Shown: positions 39,963 through 53,317, counted from the first letter of the stretch. The stretch: 64,000 nucleotides of DNA from Acutalibacteraceae bacterium (GCA_045541435.1 JAZQJD010000026.1:164842-228841); one strand, 5' to 3'. Made by a program: numbers and translations. Notes: generated by a model from the letters alone, not told the origin.

Positions 39963-40038
39963 GCTGGAATAGCTCAGTTGGTAGAGCAGCTCATTCGTAA
40001 TGAGCAGGTCGCGTGTTCGAGTCACGTTTCCAGCTCCA
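39963..40038 (+). tRNA. tRNA-Thr (anticodon CGU)
   Basis: Cloverleaf folds by hand. 7-bp acceptor stem, D and T arms, anticodon loop TTCGTAA, and an encoded CCA. Confidence 0.9.
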
Positions 40039-40071: not shown

Positions 40072-40240
40072 CATTGCGAAAGCAATGGTATATCATCACA
40101 CTTTAGTGTGTATATCATCGCCAAAGGCGTATATCATCAACCACAGGTTGCATAATCTTTCGCAATGATGATATACAAAGCGTTGCTTTGGTGATATGCA
40201 ATTTCTGCAAAATTGATGATATACACACCTACGGTGTGAT
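40072..40240. repeat. Iteron-like array of 9-mer TATATCATC boxes, each beside a short hairpin
   Basis: Direct boxes at 40089, 40111 and 40130, with a degenerate fourth at ~40151. Exact inverted boxes GATGATATA at 40167 and 40215, plus a variant GTGATATGC near 40191. Each box abuts a different 4-6-bp-stem hairpin. Confidence 0.6.
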
Positions 40241-40475
40241 TTTTCTTACAAGAACTCAATGCAAGAATCCTGAACGAGCTCATTGAGAAAATTGTGGTAT
40301 CAGAAAAGGAAATTATAGACGGTGAAAAATATCAATGCGTGCATATATACTACAAGTTCGTAGGGTTGATGAGTATATAAAAAGAAGCTGATAAAATCAG
40401 CTCCTTGTTTATAAATTTATATATTGCTTTTATTTCAAAACAAAAAATTGTTTTGCACTTATTTTTTGTATAAAT

Positions 40476-41180
40476 TTAAACTTCTTCTGCTTCGTTCTTT
40501 TCGTTTTCAGCACCAAGAAAATCAATTTCGCCATTTTTATAAGCTTTTATAATTTTATTTAAAAGACTCCTTTTCAAAAAAACACTCTCAACCCAAAATC
40601 TTACAAATCTCCATTTTATGCCTTCTTCAGAAAACATCTTATAACTAGGTCTATTTATCTTTTTGGTAATATGTTTATCTATTCGCTTTTGCCACTTTTG
40701 AATATCTCCAATTAGCATCAAACCTACAAATTCATAGTTTGTTTCTCCAGTTTCATTCATAAATAATAGCAAGCACAATGTATATCTGTTCATAGCATAT
40801 AGATATGCTGATGTTGTTAAATCAAGATACCTTTCATGTTCTTCTCTACAATTTTGTATACCATCTAAAAATTCAATAAAAGTCTCCCTGCTTTCCATAA
40901 TTTCAGGATAATAAATATTATTAGAAAAAGTAGCATCCTCTGGCGTCTCTATATCATCACCAAACGAAAATATATCGATCGCAGCCGCTTTTAATTCCAC
41001 CTTTTTTACTTCTTCATACGCAGAAAAAATTTTTTCTCCCAATTTTTCTCTATAATTGATTTTTGTTTGTTTTTTTATTTTATGTAATTCAGCGATATGT
41101 GTAAGCAAAGCAGTAATTACAATAATTATCACTTTTTCTACTATGTCTTCTGTAAAAAAATCTTTTATAAGTTCAATCAT
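40476..41180 (-). CDS. Hypothetical protein (island cargo, no recognisable domain)
   Basis: 234-aa ORF. Second gene of a two-gene unit between the tRNA-Thr and its duplicated 3' end. Confidence 0.4.
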   Translation of the reverse strand: MIELIKDFFTEDIVEKVIIIVITALLTHIAELHKIKKQTKINYREKLGEKIFSAYEEVKKVELKAAAIDIFSFGDDIETPEDATFSNNIYYPEIMESRETFIEFLDGIQNCREEHERYLDLTTSAYLYAMNRYTLCLLLFMNETGETNYEFVGLMLIGDIQKWQKRIDKHITKKINRPSYKMFSEEGIKWRFVRFWVESVFLKRSLLNKIIKAYKNGEIDFLGAENEKNEAEEV

Positions 41181-41186
41181 ACTTAT

Positions 41187-41801
41187 TCACCTCAACTTAA
41201 CCTTAATTTCCGGACCAAAATTGAGTGGCTCAAAATCATCGTTAACTTCCCACAAATAACTATACAAATACAAGATATGTGTAGCATTGGATGGGTCGGT
41301 TTTGTATTGGCGATAATTAGCACAACTTGTCCAGAATTGTTCTGCAGTAAATCGTTCGGGAAGTGCTGATATAACTCTTGAAAAAGCTTCAACTTGTTCA
41401 TCCGAGAGCTTCATCCATACACTATTAACTGAAGGATTCGGCAAATCAGGTGCACTATCGAATTTCTGTTTAAGTTTTGGATTTTCAGCAAAGACTGTTT
41501 CAATGGATTGAAGGACATCATCTGCAACAAGTTTGCACCATTGTGCATCTACGAACTCACAACCATTGCTTGGTTTCATTTTTGCAGAAAATCCTTTTTT
41601 CAATATAATCCAATCACTAAGATGGTCACCTTTTTTCCATGATATTCCGTTATATGAGTAATCTTCATCTGCATATTTAGGGAAAACACCTACAACTTTC
41701 CAATAGCCTGAACTATATTGGGTAACCCAATCACCAACTTTAAAGGTTGAATATGTGTCATTTGTTTTTTCTTTCTTGTGGAATATATCAAACAAACCCA
41801 T
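41187..41801 (-). CDS. Hypothetical protein (island cargo, no recognisable domain)
   Basis: 204-aa ORF. A 6-nt gap separates it from the downstream ORF. Confidence 0.4.
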   Translation of the reverse strand: MGLFDIFHKKEKTNDTYSTFKVGDWVTQYSSGYWKVVGVFPKYADEDYSYNGISWKKGDHLSDWIILKKGFSAKMKPSNGCEFVDAQWCKLVADDVLQSIETVFAENPKLKQKFDSAPDLPNPSVNSVWMKLSDEQVEAFSRVISALPERFTAEQFWTSCANYRQYKTDPSNATHILYLYSYLWEVNDDFEPLNFGPEIKVKLR

Positions 41802-41896: not shown

Positions 41897-41930
41897 CAGG
41901 TCGCGTGTTCGAGTCCCGTTTCCAGCTACA
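41897..41930 (+). repeat. Duplicated 3' portion of tRNA-Thr (attR-like direct repeat)
   Basis: CAGGTCGCGTGTTCGAGTCcCGTTTCCAGCT matches tRNA positions 40008-40038 at 30 of 31 nt. Followed by the hairpin terminator CCGCACACGAAAGTGTACGGG plus T-run. Confidence 0.75.
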
Positions 41931-42085
41931 AAAATGCCGCACACGAAAGTGTACGGGATTTTTACTTATTCACTAATAATATTGATATTAAAATCTTAAA
42001 TATTTCTTAAGATTCTATCGATTTGTTGTTTTCTGTTCTTTTTACTGCTAAAATTGTGATATAGCAAGCTGAAAGGAGCGGTTTT

Positions 42086-42781
42086 ATGGCAAAGTTCAAA
42101 TCAAATAAGAAAATAATAAAAATACTTATAATTGTTGCAGTAATTCTTATCGTGGCAAGTGTTCTTTTAAACGGCATTAACTTAGTACCATTCAGATACA
42201 GAAATGTACCTGTTTCTTTCTTAACTCCTGATTTAACATGGAACAGTAAGCCGAGTGATATTATTTTAAAATATGATTTACCCGAAGATATCGGCGAAGT
42301 AAATGACATAACAGGTGAACGCACTTTCAAATTTAAGTTAAATTATGATGAAAAAGAAGTATCTTTATCAGCTGATAACAGAGGTGCTCTTAATAGCGAA
42401 CTCCACCGCTATTATTTCACTATAGATTGCAAAACACCCGAAGAAGCAAACAAATACTTTGACGAATGTCATAAAAAGATGATGGATTTATATAAAAATG
42501 AGCCGGATTTTAAGTTTGAAGGCACAGAAACTGAAACTGATTATGAATTCAAAGATGGTTCACCCTGCTCTTATTCCTCTTCATATAAAAACGGGAAAGA
42601 AGAAATTCTGATTATAGACGATGACGGAAACGAAATTCCGGTTGAAGAAGCAGATAATGTTATACAAGTGAAAACAAAGGTAAACAGCTATGATATGAGT
42701 AATACAGTAGGTGTCAACTGGTGGCTTTCTTATTCCGAAGGGGATTCTTCAGTTTATTTACAGGCTGAAATTATGTATTAA
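42086..42781 (+). CDS. Hypothetical N-terminally anchored membrane protein
   Basis: N-terminal TM (IIKILIIVAVILIVASVLL). Acidic extracytoplasmic domain. Confidence 0.4.
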   Translation: MAKFKSNKKIIKILIIVAVILIVASVLLNGINLVPFRYRNVPVSFLTPDLTWNSKPSDIILKYDLPEDIGEVNDITGERTFKFKLNYDEKEVSLSADNRGALNSELHRYYFTIDCKTPEEANKYFDECHKKMMDLYKNEPDFKFEGTETETDYEFKDGSPCSYSSSYKNGKEEILIIDDDGNEIPVEEADNVIQVKTKVNSYDMSNTVGVNWWLSYSEGDSSVYLQAEIMY

Positions 42782-42793
42782 GCTTATAATTCA

Positions 42794-42835
42794 AACCACT
42801 CCGTTTAACAGATTTTTCTGCTAAACGGAGTGGTT
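42794..42835. repeat. Conserved hairpin family, copy 1 (bidirectional terminator)
   Basis: CCGTTTAACAGA-TTTT-TCTGCTAAACGG core with a conserved A/C mismatch in the stem. Confidence 0.6.
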
Positions 42836-42846
42836 TGTTTCTTGAA

Positions 42847-43842
42847 TTATTTAATCACTGCATATTTAAAAATCTCTTGAGCTTCTTCTTTGGTAAAGCC
42901 TGCGAGCTTGATTGCGTAAATCTTGCTTAAATCTTCTTTTGACTGGAAATACAAAAGATAGGTTTCAGTATTTTCTTCTGAGAGAATATAATGTCCCTGT
43001 GCCACTGCCCTATTATTTTCGGAAACAATATAATGGGAGTTACCGTTACCCATCGGCAATACTGATATTGCCATACTTGAATAATAGGCGCACGCCTTTG
43101 TATAATTCTCAAATGAACATAAAAGCTTTGCTTCGGGCGGGTCGCTTGAAATAAAATCTTTTAGCATTTTATAATTATAAGGAACTGCAACCTCTGTACT
43201 GTACCCATAATTCTCTATACCCTTTTTAGCAATGGCATAAACTATCGGATATTTTAAAGATTGATTAAAATATTTTTTATGTTCATCCAATGTAGGAATC
43301 GGCACACCTTGATTTTCATCGTAAATAACAATATTTTTACCTTTACCAAAATCAAGAATGTAAGTTCTTTCTATCTTCTTTTCCTTGTATTCACCAATTT
43401 CTGCATCTATATATAAATTAAAGTATTCGTTACTGTAATTACTCCTTGTATTGTCACCACTTTCAAAAACCTGGCAGGTATCCGTAACACCGCTATAGCG
43501 ACCCTTATCAAATTCGATTTTATATAACATCAACGGCACTTTAAGAAACGCAAATACGCCCAACAAAACAAGCACAACTAAAAATACTGATACGGTTTTG
43601 ATTATTGCTTTTTTCTTATCCTTTTTAAACATATTACCAACTCCTTTTATCAATTCTGTTGAATCATTGTTTAAAGCTTTAATTTCGGGTTGATTTGTTA
43701 ACTGCTCATATTCCTTTCTGCAGGATGGGCAAATATCCAAATGATTTTTTATAATTTCCGTTGATTCCTTACTGCAAAGGTCATCTATATACAGAGGCAA
43801 TAAATCCTTTATTAAGGAACAGCTTTCTTTATTCACCTTCAC
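42847..43842 (-). CDS. Anti-sigma factor (zf-HC2 zinc finger, single TM, extracytoplasmic domain)
   Basis: CSLIKDLLPLYIDDLC...HLDICPSCRKEY zinc-finger anti-sigma motif, then a TM and a 230-aa external domain. Overlaps the sigma gene. Confidence 0.65.
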   Translation of the reverse strand: MKVNKESCSLIKDLLPLYIDDLCSKESTEIIKNHLDICPSCRKEYEQLTNQPEIKALNNDSTELIKGVGNMFKKDKKKAIIKTVSVFLVVLVLLGVFAFLKVPLMLYKIEFDKGRYSGVTDTCQVFESGDNTRSNYSNEYFNLYIDAEIGEYKEKKIERTYILDFGKGKNIVIYDENQGVPIPTLDEHKKYFNQSLKYPIVYAIAKKGIENYGYSTEVAVPYNYKMLKDFISSDPPEAKLLCSFENYTKACAYYSSMAISVLPMGNGNSHYIVSENNRAVAQGHYILSEENTETYLLYFQSKEDLSKIYAIKLAGFTKEEAQEIFKYAVIK

Positions 43843-44329
43843 TCATCCTTTCTTCGATTTGTTTTTTTGCTCTGAAATATGTTACTCTCGCCCAGTTTTC
43901 TGTTTTATCGAAAACATCGGCAATAGTGGAATATGGCATATCTCCCAGGATTTTCATATAAAAAACTTCCTTATAGGGAGTTTCCAATTTAACGGCTTCA
44001 GTTAGAATTCTTTTAACATTTTCATTTTTAATTGCATTTTCTTCGGGGGTATTGTCTGCAACTAAATTGGGGTAATCTGAAATACTTTCCGCTTGCTTTT
44101 TCCTTTTGGAATTAAGAAAAATATTTCTTGCAATACTGCAAAGCCAGGTTTCGATTTTGCAGTCGTTTTTAAATGTATCAATCTTTTTAATTGCGTTATA
44201 AAAGGTTTCCTGCGTTATATCTTCCGCCAAAGCTTCATTAAGGCATAAAGACAAGGCATAGCTTTTCACATATTTATAATGCAAATTACACATTTTTTCT
44301 AAATCATCCAAAGCCGTCCCCCCTTTCAT
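43829..44329 (-). CDS. ECF-subfamily sigma-70 factor
   Basis: Sigma region 2 and region 4 motifs in a 166-aa ORF. Translationally coupled to the anti-sigma gene. Confidence 0.75.
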   Translation of the reverse strand: MKGGTALDDLEKMCNLHYKYVKSYALSLCLNEALAEDITQETFYNAIKKIDTFKNDCKIETWLCSIARNIFLNSKRKKQAESISDYPNLVADNTPEENAIKNENVKRILTEAVKLETPYKEVFYMKILGDMPYSTIADVFDKTENWARVTYFRAKKQIEERMSEGE

Positions 44330-44447
44330 TTTTATTTTATATGTAACAAATCCGCTTCAACCTTTTTGATTTTCAACTATTAGAAACATAAAAAGGCATT
44401 TCATTACAAAAATTTTTAAATATTTTTCATTTTTATTGTAACATAAA

Positions 44448-44484
44448 AATCCGCTTAACAGAATATTATCTGCTAAACGGATTT
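44448..44484. repeat. Conserved hairpin family, copy 2 (terminator of the SPFH gene)
   Basis: CCGCTTAACAGA-ATATTA-TCTGCTAAACGG followed by a T-run. Confidence 0.6.
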
Positions 44485-44524
44485 GTTTTTATCATCAACT
44501 AATTATTTATATCCAAATGAATGA

Positions 44525-45916
44525 TTAAAGCTTTTCGCCACATTCAAGGCAGAATTTTGCACCTGTTGGAATTTCTGCACCGCATTTTGCACATTTAATA
44601 ATCAAGGATGCGCCACATTCCATACAGAACTTGCCTTTGGATGTCTTTTTACCACAAACAGGGCAAATCATTTCATTTTCTGCAAGGTTTTCTACCTTTG
44701 CACCACATTCAAGGCAGAATTTTGCATTAGCAGGTAAGGTATTGCCACATTTAGCGCATTTAATACTGCTTTCTGGAGTCTGGACGCTACCTGCAAAACC
44801 ATTGAAAACCTCACCTAACTGACCGCTCATTGCACCTGCTGCCTGAAGACCAACACCTAAGCCGACGATATCGCCCATCATACTGCCACCGGCACCATCG
44901 CCCCCCATATTGCCAAGACCTTCTGCAAATGCTTTCTGAACATCCGCCTGAACATATTCTTTTTCAGTAATACCTTTAGCAGCCATAATTTCAGCTTCTG
45001 CAAAGCCTGCCATTTTTGCTGCCTGTGCTTCTGTTTGCGCTTTAATAAGCTCACGCTCTGCTTCGCGTTTAGCGACCTCTGTTTCGGTTGTCTGTCGCTC
45101 AAGCTCAATCTGTCTCTGAGCTGCAGTAACCTCCGCCTCCGCCTCTGCTTTTGCAGTTCGGATTTCAGTTTCTGCCTCAACCATTCTCTTCTGGAATGAA
45201 ATTGTATGTAATTCTCGAATTTTCTTGAAGTTGAGGTCATCTTCGGGCAAAACAATTGTTGTCACATAAAGCTGAGGAATTGTTAAACCATATTCTTCAA
45301 AGCCGGGTATAAGTTCTTCTTTAAGAACTCCTGAAAGGTCTTCAAGTCTCTCATCTATTTCAAGAATATCTATTTCCCCCTGCTTGATAGCGATTGGAAG
45401 ATTCGCTTTAACTGCAGTTGAAATGAAAGGTCTGAAGCAGTCGTTAAGACTCTTTGTAAAGCCTTCCCTGCTATCGCCCCAGGCAATGCCGTTTGCAGTA
45501 CCAACAAGCTTTATAAGAAGCTTACGGGAATCGGAAACCTGAAGATTCATTTCACCGCTGGCACCTAACTCAAGGGGAACACCTGTAAGAGAATCAATAA
45601 AACGAACCTTACTGTCTGTGCCCCATTTAACAGACATCTGAACAGTTTTGTTAATGAAATAAACTTCGCAATGGAAAGGTGATTCCCCACCTGTTGCAAG
45701 GTTAAGAAGATTGCTGAGTAAGGGAATATTCTGTGTGGTGAGAGTATATCTTCCGGGTCCGAAAGAATCAAGTGCCTGACCGTTTTTAAAGAAAATTGCC
45801 TCCTGACTTTCGTGAACAATCAACTGTGAAAGAATATTAAAATCCTCTGCAGGATGCTTCCAGATAAATGTACTGTTATCGCCTTCATATTTAATAACAT
45901 CTATAATCTTTGCCAT
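44525..45916 (-). CDS. SPFH/band-7 (PF13421-like) protein with a coiled coil and three C-terminal zinc ribbons
   Basis: SPFH-like N-terminal domain, an Ala/Glu-rich coiled coil, and three CxxC...CxxCG ribbons (CAKCGNTL..FCLECG, CPVCGKK..FCMECG, CAKCGAEI..FCLECG). Confidence 0.65.
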   Translation of the reverse strand: MAKIIDVIKYEGDNSTFIWKHPAEDFNILSQLIVHESQEAIFFKNGQALDSFGPGRYTLTTQNIPLLSNLLNLATGGESPFHCEVYFINKTVQMSVKWGTDSKVRFIDSLTGVPLELGASGEMNLQVSDSRKLLIKLVGTANGIAWGDSREGFTKSLNDCFRPFISTAVKANLPIAIKQGEIDILEIDERLEDLSGVLKEELIPGFEEYGLTIPQLYVTTIVLPEDDLNFKKIRELHTISFQKRMVEAETEIRTAKAEAEAEVTAAQRQIELERQTTETEVAKREAERELIKAQTEAQAAKMAGFAEAEIMAAKGITEKEYVQADVQKAFAEGLGNMGGDGAGGSMMGDIVGLGVGLQAAGAMSGQLGEVFNGFAGSVQTPESSIKCAKCGNTLPANAKFCLECGAKVENLAENEMICPVCGKKTSKGKFCMECGASLIIKCAKCGAEIPTGAKFCLECGEKL

Positions 45917-45952
45917 ATTAAAGACCTCCTATTAATTTATGTCAATATATTT

Positions 45953-47689
45953 TTAATTAATTTTACTAACCAAAGCCCACAAAACTAGAATTAAGGAAAG
46001 AACCGCTACACCAATTAAAATTTTGGAGTAATGTTTTTTGTTTTTGTTATTATTCTTTCGTTCTTCTTCGGCTTTTTGGCGTTCAATACGCTCTTCCTCA
46101 GCCTTGTGTTCTCGCGCTATTCTGTCTGCTTGTTCCTTTGCTTTGATTTCTTCGATTCTTTTCTTACAAGCAATGATTTTTTCATCAGCATCTTTCCAAC
46201 CGGGAATTTCTTCAAGAAGCGCAATGGCGTTCACATACTTTGCGGTATTTGAGCCGGTCATATTCGCCTCAGCCTCAGAAAGAATTGTATCCTTTCTTGC
46301 AATCTCACCTTTTTCAAAGCATTCCTGAGATTTTTCCTTTGCATCGGCATAGTCCATAACCTCAATGAACATATATCCTGCATTTTCAAACATCTGCTCA
46401 GTTGTAGCACTTTCCATTATTTCAAGGGCGTTTTCATATAAATCCTTTTTACGAGCATCATCTAAACGCCTTGCAATAATTTTATTGCAGTTTTTAACTT
46501 TTTCTTTCAATTCGCTATCAGCAAACCGCATTATTTTTTCATAATTTTTATTATCGCTGAACGTTGTATAAAAGCTACTAAGATTTTCAAATTTTGAGAT
46601 TTCCAAATCAGCAAAAAGTTTACCTAAATATGCACTTGCGTTTTTAGGGTCTTGATTAAGTACAGCTTCAAAAAATTCATCCGCATTATCCCAATCCTGA
46701 TCTTCAAGAAAATGAAAGCCTCTCTCCAAAAGTGGTGCAACATCAACATTATCGTTATTCAAAACAATTTTTTCTTTTGAGGCTTTAACACGGGTTTTAT
46801 CAATAATGTGCTCGATACTTTCCATAAGGCTTCCGAAGAAAGTCACATCACCCATATCAAGAGCCTGCATATTTTTAAACTCTTTAGGAATGTCGTAGGC
46901 ATCCATATTCTTATAGCAAGGTATAAGCACCTTAGAAGAATTGTCGCCCATCATTGATATAAAACGAGACCACTCGTTTTTAACCCATACTGCATTGTAA
47001 TAATCGTGCTTTGTACCTATGGCAAGCATAATTTTTGCACTTGAAAGAGCCGCATAAATATATGGTTCATATTCCGTACCGGCAATCTCACGAAGAGAAG
47101 CTCTTGAAAAGAAAACTCGGTAACCGGCTCTCAAAAGCTCGGTATAAATATCCTGAGCTATAAGGCTATCCTCAGTTCGTGAACCGGTAATATCATCAAT
47201 TTCTTTATAACAAATGAAAATATCATAAGGTTCTTCATTTAAGGCTATATCAAGTATTTTCTTTTGAATTTTATCAATTGCTTTGGCTTCGTCACGGTAG
47301 ATGTTTTTTGCAGTTATATCAGCATACTCGCAAGCCTGCTGAAAATCATCATCTTCCATAATGGCAACAGGCAAGGTACGATGGCAGGTAGGAACCTTAC
47401 TTCCATTTCCGTCATCTACATATTCAATACCATACTTGCAAAGCACCAGCCCCCAATAGGCTTCAGCTTCATCACGAAATTCTGCAATAATACTTTCATA
47501 TATTCCGGCAGCTTTATCAAATTCACTTTTTATGCGAAGGTTATTGGCGCGAGAAAAAAGCGCAAGCTTTTTCTCATCATCCAATTTTGGCAGAGTCTGC
47601 TGTGTGCCACAATATTCGCAAGTGGCAACAGATTGATTATCCGAAATCTCCAACGCTCCCCCGCACATTTTACATTTAAAAATTGCCAT
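45953..47689 (-). CDS. Zinc-ribbon plus TIR-domain protein with TPR-like/coiled-coil regions and a C-terminal TM anchor
   Basis: N-terminal CKMCG...CEYCG ribbon. TIR motifs DIFICYKEID and WVKNEW (putative catalytic Glu). C-terminal coiled coil plus hydrophobic tail ILIGVAVLSLILVLWALV. Confidence 0.65.
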   Translation of the reverse strand: MAIFKCKMCGGALEISDNQSVATCEYCGTQQTLPKLDDEKKLALFSRANNLRIKSEFDKAAGIYESIIAEFRDEAEAYWGLVLCKYGIEYVDDGNGSKVPTCHRTLPVAIMEDDDFQQACEYADITAKNIYRDEAKAIDKIQKKILDIALNEEPYDIFICYKEIDDITGSRTEDSLIAQDIYTELLRAGYRVFFSRASLREIAGTEYEPYIYAALSSAKIMLAIGTKHDYYNAVWVKNEWSRFISMMGDNSSKVLIPCYKNMDAYDIPKEFKNMQALDMGDVTFFGSLMESIEHIIDKTRVKASKEKIVLNNDNVDVAPLLERGFHFLEDQDWDNADEFFEAVLNQDPKNASAYLGKLFADLEISKFENLSSFYTTFSDNKNYEKIMRFADSELKEKVKNCNKIIARRLDDARKKDLYENALEIMESATTEQMFENAGYMFIEVMDYADAKEKSQECFEKGEIARKDTILSEAEANMTGSNTAKYVNAIALLEEIPGWKDADEKIIACKKRIEEIKAKEQADRIAREHKAEEERIERQKAEEERKNNNKNKKHYSKILIGVAVLSLILVLWALVSKIN

Positions 47690-47833
47690 AAAATTACCTA
47701 CTTAAATCACAGTTTAAATATTACATTAAGATACAAGTATACATAATAATTATGAACTTTTCTGAATTTTATTTCTATTCGCATTTACTACAAAATTCGA
47801 CACTATTTTTTGACATTACAGAATTATATATAA

Positions 47834-47871
47834 AAACCCGTTTAACAGAATATACTCTGCTAAACAGGTTT
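47834..47871. repeat. Conserved hairpin family, copy 3 (terminator of the BlaR1-like gene)
   Basis: CCGTTTAACAGA-ATATAC-TCTGCTAAACAGG followed by a T-run. Confidence 0.6.
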
Positions 47872-47886
47872 ATATTTTTTATATAA

Positions 47887-50784
47887 TTATTTATCAAACA
47901 ACAACACTTTATAATTACTTGAAACTAATGATTCACTCTCTTCAAAAACGAAGCTTTGAACATTTTCTTTTTCATAATGCGGAACAAGTATGAAATACAA
48001 TTTATTTTCAATTTGATAAGTTTGAGGCGTTAAATCGTGGGGCTTTGATGAGGAAATAAATTTATTGTTTTTCTCTTGTAAATAAGTAACGCCTGAATTT
48101 GCATTAGCTACATATTCCACATATTTTTCTTCATCCATAGTTAAAAGATAATATTCCGGTTGAGGTTCGGTTTTATCTATGTTCTTGGTTTGAAGAATAG
48201 AAAGCTCTGTTTTTTCAATAATCTCATCTATTGTCTGCATCCTGCCGTCATTTTTAGGATTATATTCAGAGAGTAAAACTATTTCTTCGTTAATCACATT
48301 GAAAAAAGCGGTATTATCGAAAGTAATAATAATATTTCCTTCAATCCAGAAATCCTCATTTGCTTTTGTTCCGTTATATACCCAGACATTAAATATGGCA
48401 TCTTCAATATTGCCTGTTGGTGTATATCTGATTCTGAAATTCTTGACCAATATATTTTCAAAATCAGTATTTAATGTAAATTTAATGTTGGATAAAATTT
48501 CATCAAATTGAGTCTTATCTGCAGGAATATCATTTTTTGAAATTTCATCATAAGTGCTGTTATCAGTTTTTATTGCAAGATATACTGTTTCTCTGTTGTT
48601 TTGGGTCTCTTCAGTTTCTCCCCATCTATCAGCTTTACAATATATTTTTCCATCCTGCACTAATTCAATTCTTTCAATTTCATAGTTTTGATTGGATGAA
48701 TATATACCGTTTGCATAAACTGTAACCCTAAAATCACTGTTTAAGCCTATGCTTTTCAATCTGCCGTTGCTTGTATAAAACAGTTTCTCATCATGAACAA
48801 CAAATTGTGGTGTTTTTGTTCCTATTCTATCAACTAAAACAGGTCCATCCGAGTACGTTTTATCATTATAGCACAGCCCATAAAACTGTAATTCACTTGT
48901 AGCATCTATAATGGCATAATAATAGTTTCCATAAATATGCTTTAAATCACCCGTATTTTCATAATATAAATTCAAGCCTAAAAGCGAACTGATATTTATA
49001 GCATCATATTCACTTTCATCACCGATATAACTTGATAAAACATGCTGAAATGGTTTAACAGTAATTTCTTCATTAGCAAGATTATATGATGAAAGTATCA
49101 GCTTCATTTCCTCAATACTTGCAAACTTATTAAAGTGTAATATTTTTTGAGGATCTATTGATTTTGAAGTAAGGTAACATTCAAAATTATCTTGACTTAG
49201 CTTTGTAACATAAACTGTAACGCCGTTTTCTGTATTCAAGCCAAAGAAATGAGGATACTTTTCTTGTAATTTTTCAATTTCTTTTTCTGTGCTTTCATCT
49301 GAAACGATAATCGAGGTAGGTCCGTCTGCTCCGCCGATTATGCCTATTGAGGAGCTGCTGCCTTTATTTTGAGATTTTTCATAAACAACCTCAAGCACAT
49401 CAAATTCAACTTCAATTTTGGTGTCTCGTCTATTCTTAAACCATTTTTTCGGAACAGAGAATACAAATTCTGTACCCGGACCTTTTGAATGGCAATATGA
49501 AGAATAGTGGCTGAAATCACCTGTTGCATCATATACATCTATTTTTTCGCCTAATTCCAGACCACCTTCAAATTGTTTTGCTTCTAACACATAAATCGTA
49601 CCCTCATTAGGTATATCTTTGTAAGTTACATCAAAAGTCAAGGTAAACATATCTTCATGACTGTACACTTCTTTAAAATTAAATTCTACAAAATCGTTAT
49701 AAGTATCCCGACCCTTAACTTTATAAACTCCATCCTGTTCAAACATTTCATCAGTTAACAGTCCCGTAACAAAAAAGATAGAAAAATCCTTTTCATTTGC
49801 ACTAATAACATCAAAGCCATCTTCATTTAAAATCCTATTCACCTTATCGTTTACAGGGTTGCTGATAAAGCAAATTGCTAAAACAAAGCTTATTATTACC
49901 GCAATTAAAACAACCCAGAATGCAGGTTTTTTGTAGTTTAAAACGGACTTGATTCTGTCTTTAACTCCAACCTCACCGAATGCAACAGGACACGCCATAA
50001 TCATTCTTCTGTTTGCACTGCAATTTAATAATGCAGTAGAATAAAGCTTTTTAAAGTCTGTATCGTAATTTTTAATTACTTTTTCATCACAAGCAGATTC
50101 AATATCTCTGCAAAGGAAAATATACCACAGCCATATCGCAGGGTTAAACCAATAAATTGACAGAATCAAAAATGAAATTGGTTTTATGATATGGTCTTTA
50201 CGCTTCAAATGTGATTTTTCATGCTCCAAAACAAATTCCAAATCTTCTTCATTCAAGCCTGACGGAACATAGATTTTAGGTTTAATTATTCCTAAAATAA
50301 AGGGTGTTTCAATATTATCGCAATAATAGATATTATCTTTATAAAGAACCGATACAGATACCTTTCTCTTTAAAATCACAAAAGAAACAAGGCTGTAAAG
50401 TACCATCAGAATTAAACCTATAACCCATATATATGATGCTATGCCAACCGCAACCATTAAGGGATTCACACTATAGCTCGGGTAAGGTGCAACAGCATTT
50501 GAAATTACAGGATTCACAACGTTATTAACAATATCAACGCCCGTATCTATTTGCGGATTGCTTGAAACGGTAATATTAGTGGGAATCGTTTCTGCTGACG
50601 GAACAAGGCTTAAAACACTTTCAAAGCTAAAAGGAAGACAAAGCCTTAAACCAACAACACCCCATAACAGACAATTTACCCATTTAGGAACCTTCTTTAA
50701 AAGTGGTCGCAGAATGGTAAATGCCAAGACTGCCCAAGTAGCAGTAATGCTCATATTAACAAGGGTTAAAAATAAATCATTCAT
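47887..50784 (-). CDS. BlaR1/MecR1-like M56 peptidase signal transducer with a ~650-aa C-terminal sensor domain
   Basis: N-terminal 4-TM M56 domain with the HEKSHLKRKDH zinc motif. A large extracytoplasmic domain of unknown fold follows. Confidence 0.7.
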   Translation of the reverse strand: MNDLFLTLVNMSITATWAVLAFTILRPLLKKVPKWVNCLLWGVVGLRLCLPFSFESVLSLVPSAETIPTNITVSSNPQIDTGVDIVNNVVNPVISNAVAPYPSYSVNPLMVAVGIASYIWVIGLILMVLYSLVSFVILKRKVSVSVLYKDNIYYCDNIETPFILGIIKPKIYVPSGLNEEDLEFVLEHEKSHLKRKDHIIKPISFLILSIYWFNPAIWLWYIFLCRDIESACDEKVIKNYDTDFKKLYSTALLNCSANRRMIMACPVAFGEVGVKDRIKSVLNYKKPAFWVVLIAVIISFVLAICFISNPVNDKVNRILNEDGFDVISANEKDFSIFFVTGLLTDEMFEQDGVYKVKGRDTYNDFVEFNFKEVYSHEDMFTLTFDVTYKDIPNEGTIYVLEAKQFEGGLELGEKIDVYDATGDFSHYSSYCHSKGPGTEFVFSVPKKWFKNRRDTKIEVEFDVLEVVYEKSQNKGSSSSIGIIGGADGPTSIIVSDESTEKEIEKLQEKYPHFFGLNTENGVTVYVTKLSQDNFECYLTSKSIDPQKILHFNKFASIEEMKLILSSYNLANEEITVKPFQHVLSSYIGDESEYDAINISSLLGLNLYYENTGDLKHIYGNYYYAIIDATSELQFYGLCYNDKTYSDGPVLVDRIGTKTPQFVVHDEKLFYTSNGRLKSIGLNSDFRVTVYANGIYSSNQNYEIERIELVQDGKIYCKADRWGETEETQNNRETVYLAIKTDNSTYDEISKNDIPADKTQFDEILSNIKFTLNTDFENILVKNFRIRYTPTGNIEDAIFNVWVYNGTKANEDFWIEGNIIITFDNTAFFNVINEEIVLLSEYNPKNDGRMQTIDEIIEKTELSILQTKNIDKTEPQPEYYLLTMDEEKYVEYVANANSGVTYLQEKNNKFISSSKPHDLTPQTYQIENKLYFILVPHYEKENVQSFVFEESESLVSSNYKVLLFDK

Positions 50785-50798
50785 ATTTCGCCCACCTT

Positions 50799-51152
50799 TT
50801 AAAACTTGTCAATCATTCTTTTTATTTCTTCAATTTCTTTTTCACTGGGCTTTTTCCTTGAAGTAAACGCAGCAACAAACGCAGGCAACGAACCCGCAAA
50901 TGCTTCATCAACAAATTTCTCACTCTGAATTGCATAAAATTCATTTTTTGAAATAAGAGCTGTAACAATACTGTTTTCTGTTTTAAAAATACCTCTTTCA
51001 CAAAGCTTTTTTAAAACTGTGTATGTAGTTGTTCTTTTCCATTTAAGCTCCTTTTCGCAAAATGCAACAAGCTCCTTTGTTGTTAATGGTTCATTCTCCC
51101 AAACAATATCTGCAAAACGAGCCTCAACCATACCTAATTTAATTTCTGCCAT
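50799..51152 (-). CDS. BlaI/MecI/CopY-family transcriptional repressor
   Basis: Winged-helix N-terminus (TTKELV...TTYTVLKKLCERG), 117 aa. Operator-like dyads lie upstream at 51165-51215. Confidence 0.85.
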   Translation of the reverse strand: MAEIKLGMVEARFADIVWENEPLTTKELVAFCEKELKWKRTTTYTVLKKLCERGIFKTENSIVTALISKNEFYAIQSEKFVDEAFAGSLPAFVAAFTSRKKPSEKEIEEIKRMIDKF

Positions 51153-51300
51153 AAAAGAACCTCCCTTTGCTGTCTATTTACTATAGACTGCATTTATAGT
51201 CTATCACCGATAGACTGTTTTGTCAATAGTTAAATAAAACGAAAAAGAAACCGAAAGCAAATTACACTTTCGATTTCTTTACTTCTTAACTATTAACTGT

Positions 51301-53124
51301 TTATTTATGTCCGAACTGCTGTTTCATACGTTTTTCTTTTGAAAGGATTCTCTTTCTCAAACGAATGCTTTCGGGTGTTACTTCAAGGAGTTCGTCGTCA
51401 CCGATAAATTCCATTGACTGTTCAAGGGAAAGAACTGTATGGGGAACGAGGCGGAGTGCATCATCACTACCTGAAGCACGAGTGTTGGTCATCTGCTTTT
51501 TCTTACAAACGTTGCAGACAATATCTTCATTCTTTGCACATTCGCCAACTATCATACCCTCATAAACGGGAACACCGGGACCAACGAAAAGACGTCCTCT
51601 GTCCTGTGTATTGAAAAGACCGTAGCCTGTGGTTTCACCTGCTTCGTGAACAACGATTGAGCCACGCTCACGCATTTGAATATCGCCCTTATATTCCTCA
51701 TAACCTGCGAAGAGGTTATTCATAATACCGTTACCGTTTGTATCGGTCATAAACTCTGAGCGATAACCGATAAGGCCACGTGCGGGAATTTTGAATTCGA
51801 TATGAGTTGAGCCGCCGTCACGAACATCCATATTTTCAAGCTCGCCCTTACGAGAACCGATTTTCTCCATAACCGCACCGACATAGCTTTCGGGCACTTC
51901 AACAATAAGAAGCTCCATAGGCTCTAAAAGCTCACCGTTAGGGCCTTTTTTATAAATAACCTGAGGACGAGAAACCTGGAATTCATAACCTTGACGGCGC
52001 ATTGTTTCAATAAGAATTGAAAGGTGCAATTCACCACGACCGCTGACCTTGAAGGAATCGGTTGTATCGGTTTCTTCAACTCTCATACTAACATTGGTTT
52101 CAACCTCTTTGAAAAGGCGGGCACGGATGTTACGGGATGTAACAAATTTACCCTCCTGCCCTGCAAAGGGGCTATCGTTAACCATAAAGTTCATTGAAAT
52201 TGTGGGTTCATCAATTTCAACAAAGGGAAGTGCTTCGGGGTAATCCTTATCGCAAGCAGTTTCACCGATATTAAGCTCATTTATACCCGAAACTGCAACT
52301 AAATCGCCCATTTTTGCTTCCTGGCATTCAACTCTTGCGAGACCTTCAAATGTATAAAGCTTAACTATTTTAGCATTGGTCTGACCGCCATCCTTATTGC
52401 AAAGAACAACCTGCTGACCGACCTTAACAGAGCCTCTTTCAACTCTGCCCACACCGATTCTTCCGAGATAATCGTCATAATCAAGGCTTGAGAATAGAAG
52501 CTGTAAGGGTCCGTCAATATCGCCCTCGGGAGCATCAATGTTTTCGAGAATAGAATCAAGAAGAGGACGCATATCCCCCTCTCGAACATCAGCATCAAGA
52601 GAAGCGTAACCATCACGGCCGGAAGCAAAAACAACAGGAAATTCAATTTGGTCGTCATTTGCGCCAAGCTCAATAAACAAGTCAAGAACCTCGTCAATAA
52701 CCTCCATGGGTCTTGCACCGGGACGGTCAACTTTATTTATAACAACAATGGCTTTTTTGCCGAGAGCAAGTGCTTTTTTAAGAACAAAACGAGTCTGAGG
52801 CATACAGCCCTCAAATGCGTCTACAAGTAAAAGAACACCGTCAACCATCATCATAATACGCTCAACCTCTCCGCCGAAGTCAGCGTGGCCGGGAGTGTCA
52901 ACAATATTGATTTTAACACCCTTATAATGAATACCTGTATTCTTTGAAAGAATTGTTATTCCTCTTTCTTTTTCAAGGTCGTTGGAGTCCATAACCCTTT
53001 CATCAACCTGCTCATTGGAACGGAAAATACCGCTTTGATGAAGAAGCTGGTCAACAAGAGTTGTTTTACCGTGGTCAACGTGAGCAATAATTGCTATATT
53101 CCTTATATCTTCTCTTTTCTGCAC
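51301..53124 (-). CDS. typA: Translational GTPase TypA/BipA
   Basis: [11 protein letters not shown]1 motif and EF-G-like domains. GTG start with a GAAGGTGA RBS. The upstream ATG extension in the track is rejected. Confidence 0.95.
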
Positions 53125-53317
53125 CTTTTTCACCTTCAGATAACTTGAGTTTTTAACTATAGAATTATACCACTCAAGAAAGCTATAATCAAGTTTTTTA
53201 GTATTCTTAATCATAGAAATTCGACAAAAGAATGGTAAAACTATTATATATTTTGCCAAAAGGCATGCAATTATTGAAAAATAAGATTAATTTTGGTAAA
53301 ATAAATGCGGTGATAAA

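What the first reader, a model, noticed from the sequence alone, without database searches (positions are those of the whole stretch)
42794..47878. Three copies of one conserved terminator-hairpin family inside the accessory island
Copies at 42794-42835, 44448-44484 and 47834-47871 share the core CG(T/C)TTAACAGA-[5-7 A/T]-TCTGCTAAAC(G/A)G. All three keep the same A/C mismatch in the stem (ACAGA opposite TCTGC), and each is followed by a T-run. Each sits at the 3' end of a transcription unit: the gene at 42086-42781, the SPFH gene, and the BlaR1-like gene. Independent terminators would not share 25 or more nucleotides including a conserved mismatch. This points to a dispersed REP/MITE-like element or a protein-recognised terminator restricted to this region.
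Basis: seen in the sequence. Interest (0 to 1): 0.5.

Follow-up and report, generated by a model that had tools for sequence, protein, structure and literature searches.

The report
Related terminator hairpins punctuating a variable island
Three nearly identical hairpins in a gut Clostridia chromosome are related copies of one transcription-terminator stem-loop found only in one variable region, where they mark the joints at which two-gene modules are present or absent in relatives; this is real and tidy but fairly ordinary.

Summary
Three hairpins (42792-42837, 44447-44484, 47834-47871) share the core TTAACAGA-N-TCTGCTAAAC, which no shuffle reproduces.

All three lie in one orientation, just downstream of minus-strand genes: anti-sigma, SPFH and BlaR1. 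On that strand the "conserved A/C mismatch" is a G.U wobble, and the RNA hairpin is more stable in 23 of 24 copies.

Relatives are Acutalibacteraceae-like MAGs. They carry the same hairpin only in the syntenic variable region between BipA and tRNA-Thr, behind at least six different upstream genes.

Copies retrieved through protein homologs, not through the motif, show compensatory stem changes. The wobble becomes A-U or G-C in some, and one copy has decayed. So the structure is conserved rather than a recognised sequence.

The TIR-SPFH and ECF sigma/anti-sigma modules are each present between two hairpins or absent with one hairpin left.

Best reading (about 0.6): paralogous intrinsic terminators, related by descent and confined to one island, whose direct repeats are the joints of module gain or loss.

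REP/MITE, attC, dif and serine-recombinase att readings failed the features I could test. A site-specific cassette mechanism remains possible at about 0.12-0.15.

The parts
42792..42837 (-). Hairpin copy 1 (HP1). It is a 21-bp stem with a 4-nt loop, lying between the stop codon of the anti-sigma gene (42847) and the stop codon of the convergent plus-strand gene (42781).
   Evidence: 63.5 bits; -34.7 kcal/mol on the minus strand, z = -11.
44447..44484 (-). Hairpin copy 2 (HP2). It has 16 pairs, including two G.U pairs, and a 6-nt loop followed by UUUUUAU. It lies 40 nt after the SPFH stop codon and upstream of the ECF sigma gene.
   Evidence: 65.7 bits; -22.0 kcal/mol on the minus strand against -12.9 on the plus strand.
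47834..47871 (-). Hairpin copy 3 (HP3). It has 17 pairs, including two G.U pairs, followed by UUUUUAU. It lies 15 nt after the BlaR1-like stop codon and upstream of the TIR-TPR gene.
   Evidence: 62.4 bits; -22.3 kcal/mol on the minus strand against -13.1 on the plus strand.
47887..51152 (-). Module 1: BlaI-like repressor (50799-51152) and BlaR1/M56-like sensor (47887-50784). It is terminated by HP3.
   Evidence: Pfam. Orthologous modules followed by the hairpin occur in L194, L226, L185 and L244. A decayed hairpin follows the module in L245.
44525..47689 (-). Module 2: TIR-TPR protein (45953-47689) and SPFH/zinc-ribbon protein (44525-45916). It is flanked by HP3 and HP2.
   Evidence: Pfam. 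The module is absent, with a single hairpin left, in L194/L244 and L201/L240. It is present between two hairpins in L251/L254.
42847..44329 (-). Module 3: ECF sigma factor (43829-44329) and zf-HC2 anti-sigma factor (42847-43842). It is flanked by HP2 and HP1.
   Evidence: Pfam and NCBIfam. The module is present between two hairpins in L247 and absent with one hairpin in L256.
51301..53259 (-). BipA/TypA, the core gene that bounds the variable region on one side. In this window it is followed by an unrelated hairpin at 51244-51280. In L201, L240 and L251 it is followed directly by the family hairpin.
39963..40038 (+). tRNA-Thr(CGU), the core boundary on the other side, with TrpR-like and his operon genes beyond it. 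A duplicated 3' fragment of the tRNA lies at 41897-41933.
40382..40406 (-). A terminator hairpin outside the family, after the unknown gene 40476-41180. Relatives L125, L154, L185, L188 and L239 have the family hairpin at this orthologous position, so the terminator has been replaced in one lineage or the other.

Best explanation
The three hairpins are paralogous copies of one Rho-independent terminator stem-loop. They are related by common descent.

The family is specific to a small lineage of Acutalibacteraceae-like gut Clostridia. In those genomes it is confined to the variable region between the core gene bipA and tRNA-Thr.

Each copy ends a one- or two-gene module transcribed on the minus strand. 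The stem is optimised for that RNA strand, because its irregular pairs are G.U pairs. The A-rich and U-rich flanks let it also work in the other direction, as at the convergent pair around HP1.

Selection keeps the hairpin structure rather than a specific sequence. The copies look nearly identical because the genomes are closely related and because the copies arose by local duplication.

The roughly 40-bp direct repeats formed by the hairpins are the joints at which modules are lost, and possibly gained. This most likely happens by recombination or replication slippage between two copies, which leaves one copy behind.

Shown here: homology, orientation, strand asymmetry, compensatory changes, restriction to the locus, and module presence/absence bounded by hairpins.

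Inferred: actual termination, and the recombination mechanism and its direction.
For: Motif statistics and position:
- The motif occurs 3 times in the window and 0 times in shuffles.
- Each copy lies 11-40 nt after a minus-strand stop codon. HP3 and HP2 are the two top-ranked terminator-like sites in the minus-strand scan.
- The sense-strand RNA is more stable in 23 of 24 copies, with means of -24.4 against -19.8 kcal/mol.

Structure is conserved:
- In 24 copies, 94% of cells are paired and 9 of 18 pairs show compensatory changes. No shuffle out of 500 reaches this.
- Copies retrieved through BlaR1 and SPFH homologs, not through the motif, show U-A to C-G double changes. The wobble is replaced by A-U (L247) or G-C (L241). 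The copy next to a 69%-identical BlaR1 has decayed.

Restriction to the locus:
- All 10 family loci in the genome scan and all 3 in the metagenome scan map to the same neighbourhood.
- In protein-retrieved loci plus the window there are 9 copies in about 40 kb of variable region and 0 in about 78 kb outside. Under a uniform density this has P of about 5.5e-5.
- There are no copies in viral contigs, plasmids or phages.

The hairpin sits at module joints:
- Alternative contexts share only the hairpin.
- TIR-SPFH lies between two hairpins in the window and L251. It is absent with one hairpin left in L194/L244 and L201/L240.
- ECF sigma/anti-sigma lies between two hairpins in the window and L247. 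It is absent with one hairpin left in L256.
- TIR-SPFH in another genomic context (L248-250, L257-259) has no family hairpin, so the hairpin belongs to the locus and not to the cassette.
Against: - There are no transcript 3'-end data.
- The U-tract of HP1 on the minus strand is weak (UUUG).
- The origin of six or more paralogous copies behind different genes is not explained by deletion alone. Some duplicative process must have created them.
- The G.U wobble is kept in 20 of 23 distinct copies. This is more than a neutral stem position might show, although most of these copies were found with a motif that fixes the neighbouring bases.
No complete genome of the lineage could be scanned, so a few copies elsewhere cannot be excluded.
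Confidence: 0.6

Rival explanations
1. The hairpins are site-specific recombination sites. In this reading they are att cores left by tandem accretion of integrative elements that have since lost their integrases (CIME-like). Alternatively they are attC-like sites of an integron-like cassette array. Modules would then be inserted and excised by a recombinase acting in trans.
For: - The modules are co-oriented, and each carries one hairpin at its 3' end.
- Presence/absence polymorphisms are bounded exactly by hairpin copies in three comparisons.
- The region is an integration hotspot. It holds a duplicated tRNA-Thr 3' fragment and a serine-recombinase remnant.
- The two hairpins flanking TIR-SPFH in L251 share the derived outer stem CTCC/GGAG.
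- The CIME/accretion model is established for streptococcal islands (PMC5704250).
Against: - No integrase or transposase lies in the 64 kb window, and none was seen among the genes examined in the variable regions of relatives, apart from one large serine recombinase. Some ORFs in those loci were not annotated.
- The element carrying that serine recombinase ends at the recombinase stop codon, about 60 nt from the hairpin.
- The distance between the arms varies from 3 to 6 nt, and the arms evolve by compensatory change. This fits a folded hairpin, not a fixed double-stranded core site.
- The attC features are absent: extrahelical bases, an unpaired central spacer, and the order 5'-RYYYAAC...GTTRRRY-3' (PMC5027507).
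- The BlaI-BlaR1 module is not flanked by two family hairpins.
Confidence: 0.14
2. The hairpin is a small mobile palindromic element (REP/REPIN- or MITE-like) that spreads to intergenic sites throughout the genome.
For: - It is a roughly 40-nt extragenic imperfect palindrome found behind at least six different genes, and only the hairpin is shared between contexts.
- Families of stem-loop repeats are known in bacteria (PMC2267715).
Against: - Every copy found lies in one locus. None lies in 53 kb of window outside it or in the core flanks of relatives.
- The family made up only 10 of the 120 rows in a loose scan of 185,579 species genomes. A strict scan found 3 hits in metagenome contigs and 0 in viral contigs.
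- There are no terminal inverted repeats beyond the stem and no target-site duplications.
- No RAYT or transposase gene is present in the window.
Confidence: 0.05
3. The hairpin is an RNA or DNA element recognised sequence-specifically by a protein encoded in or near the island. Possible roles are regulated termination or antitermination, RNA stabilisation, or operator function. Its terminator-like look would then be secondary.
For: - The 12-bp core and the G.U wobble are identical in most copies, while the loops and the outer stem vary.
- The island encodes regulators: BlaI, an ECF sigma factor and a TrpR-like protein.
Against: - The apparent invariance of the core is largely an ascertainment effect, because the motif searches required it.
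- Copies found through proteins show compensatory changes inside the core and loss of the wobble.
- No Rfam family matches.
- The BlaI operators upstream of blaI are different palindromes.
Confidence: 0.05
4. The three are independent terminators that resemble each other by chance or by convergence.
For: AT-rich genomes have many A-stem-T hairpins. Loose matches to the arms occur by chance in large collections, and most hits are of this kind.
Against: - No shuffle reproduces even one exact match.
- The 24-28 nt identity includes an asymmetric position.
- The same sequence occurs at syntenic sites in at least 12 other assemblies.
Confidence: 0.01

Closest known systems
Rho-independent (intrinsic), partly bidirectional transcription terminators
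   Same: A stable stem-loop lies 10-40 nt after stop codons and is followed by a U-rich tract. It has an A-rich 5' flank, sits between convergent genes (HP1), and evolves by compensatory stem changes.
   Different: Terminators of different genes normally share no sequence. Here at least six gene contexts share one homologous stem, and only within one genomic region.
Families of stem-loop-containing repeats (REP/BIME, ERIC, and the families catalogued in PMC2267715)
   Same: They are short extragenic palindromes at gene 3' ends, repeated within a genome.
   Different: REP-type families are high-copy and genome-wide and are linked to RAYT transposases. This family has about 1-3 copies per genome, all in one locus, and no associated transposase was seen.
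Tandem accretion of integrative elements with repeated att sites (CIMEs; ICESt1-type islands; PMC5704250)
   Same: The hotspot lies next to a core gene and a tRNA. It holds decayed modules separated by direct repeats, a duplicated tRNA 3' fragment and a recombinase remnant.
   Different: The repeats are folded hairpins with variable loop length, not a fixed core sequence. No cognate integrase is present, and the only recombinase in relatives acts about 60 nt away.
Integron cassette arrays with attC sites
   Same: Co-oriented cassettes each end in an imperfect palindrome with conserved stem bases and a variable centre. Cassette content varies between relatives.
   Different: There is no intI, attI or Pc. 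The hairpin is 38-46 nt and lacks extrahelical bases and an unpaired central spacer. The order of the GTT and AAC triplets is reversed. Each module appears to carry its own regulatory region.
DNA uptake sequences as inverted pairs in terminators (Neisseria DUS, Pasteurellaceae USS; from my own knowledge, with context in PMC2397512)
   Same: Both are specific-sequence terminator hairpins shared by many unrelated genes.
   Different: DUS/USS occur hundreds to thousands of times per genome. This family is confined to one locus, and its two arms differ systematically (G against A).

Membership tests
Intrinsic terminator | A stable G+C-containing stem-loop on the transcribed strand | tested here: met
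   Minus-strand RNA folds at -22 to -35 kcal/mol, with z from -8 to -11. The sense strand is more stable in 23 of 24 copies.
Intrinsic terminator | A U-rich tract immediately 3' of the stem | tested here: met
   HP2 and HP3 are followed by UUUUUAU. Relatives have GGAUUUCUUUGUU and similar tails. HP1 is weaker, with UUUG.
Intrinsic terminator | Location just downstream of a stop codon, at the end of a transcription unit | tested here: met
   The hairpins lie 11-40 nt after the stop codons of anti-sigma, SPFH and BlaR1. The same holds for BipA, Fic and unkA in relatives.
Intrinsic terminator | Transcript 3' ends map to the U-tract | not testable with these tools
   No RNA-seq or Term-seq data are available.
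REP/REPIN | Tens to hundreds of copies dispersed over the genome | tested here: not met
   There are 3 copies in 5 kb and none in the other 59 kb of the window. All copies in relatives lie in the same locus. A complete genome was not scanned.
REP/REPIN | An associated RAYT (IS200/IS605-like TnpA) gene and a conserved 5' GT(A/G)G head | tested here: inconclusive
   No such gene was found among the window ORFs examined. The hairpins have no GTAG head. The rest of the genome was not available.
MITE | Terminal inverted repeats flanking an internal sequence, with target-site duplications | tested here: not met
   The shared sequence is only the roughly 40-nt hairpin. The flanks differ right at the stem base, and there are no duplications.
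Integron attC site | 5'-RYYYAAC...GTTRRRY-3' boxes, extrahelical bases, an unpaired central spacer, and a length of about 57-141 nt | tested here: not met
   The stem is fully paired on the sense strand. GTT lies in the 5' arm and AAC in the 3' arm, which is the reverse order. The length is 38-46 nt. The defining features are taken from PMC5027507.
Integron attC site | An adjacent intI integrase with attI | tested here: not met
   No tyrosine recombinase was found in the window or among the genes examined in the variable regions of relatives.
dif / XerCD site (IMEX, pdif modules) | Two 11-bp arms around a fixed 6-bp centre (8 bp in some systems) | tested here: not met
   The 3' arm TTCTGTTAAAC resembles the E. 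coli XerD arm TTATGTTAAAT, recalled from memory, at 9 of 11 positions. However, the centre varies from 3 to 6 nt among copies.
dif / XerCD site (IMEX, pdif modules) | Location at the replication terminus (GC-skew switch) | tested here: not met
   The cumulative GC skew falls almost steadily across the window, apart from a small local rise near 52-58 kb that matches a plus-strand gene. There is no turning point in the island.
Large serine recombinase att site | The crossover lies within the repeated sequence at the element end | tested here: not met
   The same recombinase (98-100% identity) in L241, L242 and L243 has different DNA immediately after its stop codon. The element boundary is therefore about 60 nt from the hairpin.
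DUS/USS terminator pairs | A genome-wide over-represented 10-12-mer | tested here: not met
   The arm TCTGCTAAAC with up to 1 mismatch gives 8 hits against 5.2 expected in the window. Exact copies occur only in the three hairpins.

The most novel reading that the evidence does not exclude
The hairpins are the recombination joints of a previously undescribed cassette system in Clostridia, in which the hairpin punctuates the array. One- or two-gene modules (TIR-SPFH, ECF sigma/anti-sigma, BlaI/BlaR1, Fic and unknown genes), each carrying the hairpin at its 3' end, would be inserted and excised at the bipA-to-tRNA-Thr hotspot. This would happen by recombination on the folded hairpin, or by insertion that duplicates it, using an enzyme encoded elsewhere. 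Functionally this would resemble an integron without sharing its parts.
Probability: 0.12. Interest if true: 0.7.

Novelty: new member of a known kind. Interest (0 to 1): 0.35.

Why it matters
The finding is a clean natural example of terminators being inherited and duplicated as units. It also shows that short hairpin direct repeats can define the break points of module gain and loss in an integration hotspot of uncultured gut Clostridia.

In practice the hairpin model is a marker for this variable region. It shows which genes in it behave as swappable two-gene modules, namely TIR-SPFH, ECF sigma/anti-sigma, BlaI/BlaR1 and Fic.

It also carries a lesson for reading raw sequence. A 'conserved mismatch' in a hairpin can simply be a G.U pair on the other strand, and that reveals which strand is transcribed.

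If the minority reading of site-specific cassette exchange were true, it would be an integron-like system in a phylum where, as far as I recall, integrons have not been reported.

Tried and rejected
- **Rfam.** An E-value-mode search over 41.5-48.5 kb gave only meaningless sub-threshold miRNA/snoRNA hits on the hairpins.
- **Loose motif scan of viral contigs.** It returned 118 stretches, essentially chance matches with no extension of the stem.
- **Loose motif scan of genome contigs.** It still yielded 10 true family loci.
- **Strict motif scans.** There were 0 hits in viral contigs and 3 in metagenome contigs.
- **blastn of the consensus.** Nothing relevant was found in plasmids or phages.
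- **dif/Xer idea.** Rejected on variable centre length and on GC skew.
- **Serine-recombinase att idea.** Rejected because the element boundary lies at the recombinase stop codon.
- **attC idea.** Rejected on structure.
- **Defence-system annotation.** PADLOC gave no hits for TIR-TPR, SPFH or the three unknown proteins. NCBIfam gave only a far sub-threshold Thoeris-like TIR hit.
- **Source genome look-up.** Looking up the exact BlaR1 protein failed because it is not indexed. The rest of the 228,841-bp contig listed for the identical protein could therefore not be scanned.
- **Flank sharing between copies.** Only short A/T-rich strings are shared beyond the hairpin: ATAAATAATTA, and AGTTGATGATAAAAA between HP2 and the unkA-type flank. 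I treat these as weak.
- **Automated tail counting.** The count after the MFE stem was uninformative, because the A- and U-tracts pair in the fold.


Full report
**Observation**

The exact core TTAACAGA-N3-9-TCTGCTAAAC occurs three times in the 64 kb window and never in 100 dinucleotide-preserving shuffles. A single arm with one mismatch is not enriched, at 8 hits against 5.2 expected. The signal is therefore the paired arrangement at these three places. A covariance model built from the family (R1) finds no other copy in the window. Rfam has no matching family.

**Anatomy and strand**

All island genes next to the hairpins are on the minus strand:
- BlaI (50799-51152) and BlaR1/M56 (47887-50784), followed by HP3.
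- TIR-TPR (45953-47689) and SPFH/zinc-ribbon (44525-45916), followed by HP2.
- ECF sigma (43829-44329) and zf-HC2 anti-sigma (42847-43842), followed by HP1.

HP1 also faces the convergent plus-strand gene 42086-42781. All three hairpins have the same orientation.

Read on the minus strand, the arms are GTTTAGCAGA and TCTGTTAAAC. As RNA, the minus strand folds at -34.7, -22.0 and -22.3 kcal/mol, against -30.9, -12.9 and -13.1 for the plus strand. The terminator scan ranks HP3 and HP2 first on the minus strand. T-rich runs follow the stem on both strands, as in bidirectional terminators.

**Where else the hairpin occurs**

Ten loci carried the full hairpin, AATCCGTTTAGCAGA-loop-TCTGTTAAACGGATT, with the same asymmetry. 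They come from MAGs labelled Acutalibacteraceae, Oscillospiraceae, Eubacteriales or Clostridia.

A strict motif scan left the wobble position free (R/Y). It found 3 metagenome contigs and no viral contigs. All the copies found were of the G.U type. Plasmid and phage collections have nothing.

These loci are 77-97% identical to the window in neighbouring genes. All of them map to the same neighbourhood. On one side lie the his operon, a TrpR-like gene and tRNA-Thr (window 31.9-40.0 kb). On the other side lies BipA (51301-53259). The 11 kb between these anchors is variable.

The family is therefore small, restricted to one lineage and restricted to one locus. The upstream gene differs between copies:
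- An unknown gene like window 40476-41180 (L125, L154, L185, L188, L239).
- A Fic/DOC gene (L170, L204, L222, L241).
- BipA itself (L201, L240).
- BlaR1 (L194, L226, L185 and the window).
- SPFH and anti-sigma (the window).

Homology between alternative contexts begins and ends at the base of the stem.

**Removing the ascertainment bias**

Motif searches force the core to be invariant. I therefore retrieved loci through protein homologs of BlaR1 and SPFH instead (contigs).
- L244 (BlaR1 86% identical) has the family hairpin.
- L245/L246 (69% identical) have a decayed copy with three U.U mismatches.
- L247 covers the whole region from BipA to the his operon. It reads BipA, an unrelated hairpin, TIR, SPFH, a hairpin variant, ECF sigma, anti-sigma, a hairpin, then a tRNA-Thr 3' fragment. 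The variant is CCGCCTAACAG...CTGTTAGGCGG, with two compensatory pairs and the wobble turned into A-U.
- L251/L254/L255 read BipA, a hairpin variant (one compensatory U-A to C-G change), TIR, SPFH, a hairpin, then ECF sigma.
- L241 has a short variant after the anti-sigma ortholog, with G-C at the wobble position.

On the 24-copy alignment, 94% of cells pair and 9 of 18 pairs show changes on both sides. No shuffle out of 500 reaches the observed covariation. The wobble pair is G.U in 20 rows, A-U in 1, G-C in 1 and unpaired in 1.

The hairpin is therefore conserved as a structure. This fits a terminator and weakens the idea of a sequence read by a protein.

In the window plus the protein-retrieved loci, 9 copies lie in about 40 kb of variable region and none in about 78 kb outside it. 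Under a uniform density this has P of about 5.5e-5.

**Modules and joints**

- **TIR-SPFH.** It lies between two hairpins in the window and in L251. In L194/L244 (BlaR1, hairpin, ECF sigma) and in L201/L240 (BipA followed directly by the hairpin, with ECF sigma next in L201) it is absent and a single hairpin remains.
- **ECF sigma/anti-sigma.** It lies between two hairpins in the window and in L247. In L256 the order is SPFH, one hairpin, a tRNA-like fragment, with the module absent.
- **TIR-SPFH in another context.** The pair also exists at 87% identity between spoIVB-like and spo0A genes, or beside extra TIR paralogs, and has no family hairpin there (L248-250, L257-259). The hairpin therefore belongs to the locus and not to the cassette.
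- **Terminator turnover.** At some orthologous positions the family hairpin is replaced by an unrelated one. In the window this is seen after BipA (51244-51280) and after gene 40476-41180 (40382-40406), as shown.

The simplest mechanism for the presence/absence pattern is recombination or slippage between two direct hairpin copies, which leaves one copy. Insertion with duplication of the hairpin cannot be excluded. Some duplicative process must have made the paralogs in the first place.

**Alternatives tested**

- **REP/MITE.** The copy number and distribution do not fit. There are no terminal repeats or target duplications, and no transposase in the window.
- **attC.** There are no extrahelical bases and no unpaired spacer. 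The triplet order is reversed, the site is too short, and there is no integrase.
- **dif/Xer.** One arm resembles a XerD arm. However, the centre length varies from 3 to 6 nt and GC skew shows no terminus.
- **Serine recombinase.** A TndX-like gene is intact in L239/L241. A 53-codon C-terminal remnant lies at window 40225-40383. The same recombinase in L242/L243 has unrelated DNA right after its stop codon. Its crossover is therefore about 60 nt from the hairpin, which is chromosomal flank.
- **Site-specific cassette or CIME-like accretion** (PMC5704250). This remains the main rival at about 0.14. The region is an integration hotspot, and three indels are bounded by the hairpins.

**Verdict**

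It is partly wrong on three points. The feature is not a mismatch, the family is not a dispersed REP/MITE, and there is no evidence for protein recognition.

The family is best seen as paralogous intrinsic terminators that punctuate a variable island and serve as its recombination joints. I rate it a new member of a known kind, of moderate interest (0.35).

Noticed in passing
window 40088-40225: There are three copies of GTATATCATCA and three inverted copies of TGATGATATAC at 19-25 nt spacing, separated by small hairpins. They lie between tRNA-Thr and the recombinase remnant. L185 has the same architecture with a different 9-10-mer (TATGTAATC / GATTACATA). The array looks like a set of arm-type or iteron-like protein-binding sites.
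   Followed up: partly
window 40225-40383 (+): A 53-codon C-terminal (DUF4368-type) remnant of a TndX-like large serine recombinase, 89-96% identical to L185, L239 and L241. The full 543-aa gene is intact in L239/L241 at the same place. The element carrying it ends exactly at its stop codon.
   Followed up: yes
window 41897-41933: A duplicated 3' fragment of tRNA-Thr, about 1.9 kb from the intact gene (39963-40038). It brackets two unknown genes (40476-41801) and is typical of a decayed integrated element. Similar tRNA fragments sit directly after family hairpins in L247, L241 and L256. In L222 the intact tRNA-Thr itself follows the hairpin after about 12 nt.
   Followed up: partly
window about 51160-51226 (minus strand): Two palindromes, AGTCTATCGGTGATAGACT and AGTCTATAGTAAATAGAC, overlap a TTGACA promoter-like site upstream of blaI. 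They are conserved in L194, L226, L244 and L245 and are probably BlaI operators.
   Followed up: no
window 44525-47689; L248-L250, L257-L259: The TIR-TPR plus SPFH/double-zinc-ribbon gene pair is very widespread in Clostridia, with at least 7,983 SPFH homologs at E<=1e-60 among the 8,000 candidates scored. In other genomes it sits between spoIVB-like and spo0A genes, or beside up to three TIR paralogs. It is not in PADLOC, and NCBIfam gave only a far sub-threshold Thoeris-like TIR hit.
   Followed up: partly
L155:1319-1346 (Ferruginibacter MAG); L023/L084 and L024 (viral contigs): Unrelated organisms have hairpins with the same 10-nt arms and the same G.U position, for example AAACGTTTAGCAGAAAATTTTCTGTTAAACGGAGG. 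The L155 hit scores 29.9 bits with R1. Given the size of the collections this is probably chance, but I did not examine it further.
   Followed up: no
window 51244-51280 and 40382-40406; L170, L204, L247 after BipA: Terminators turn over at orthologous positions. Downstream of the same core gene, bipA, relatives carry at least four unrelated hairpins in addition to the family hairpin.
   Followed up: partly
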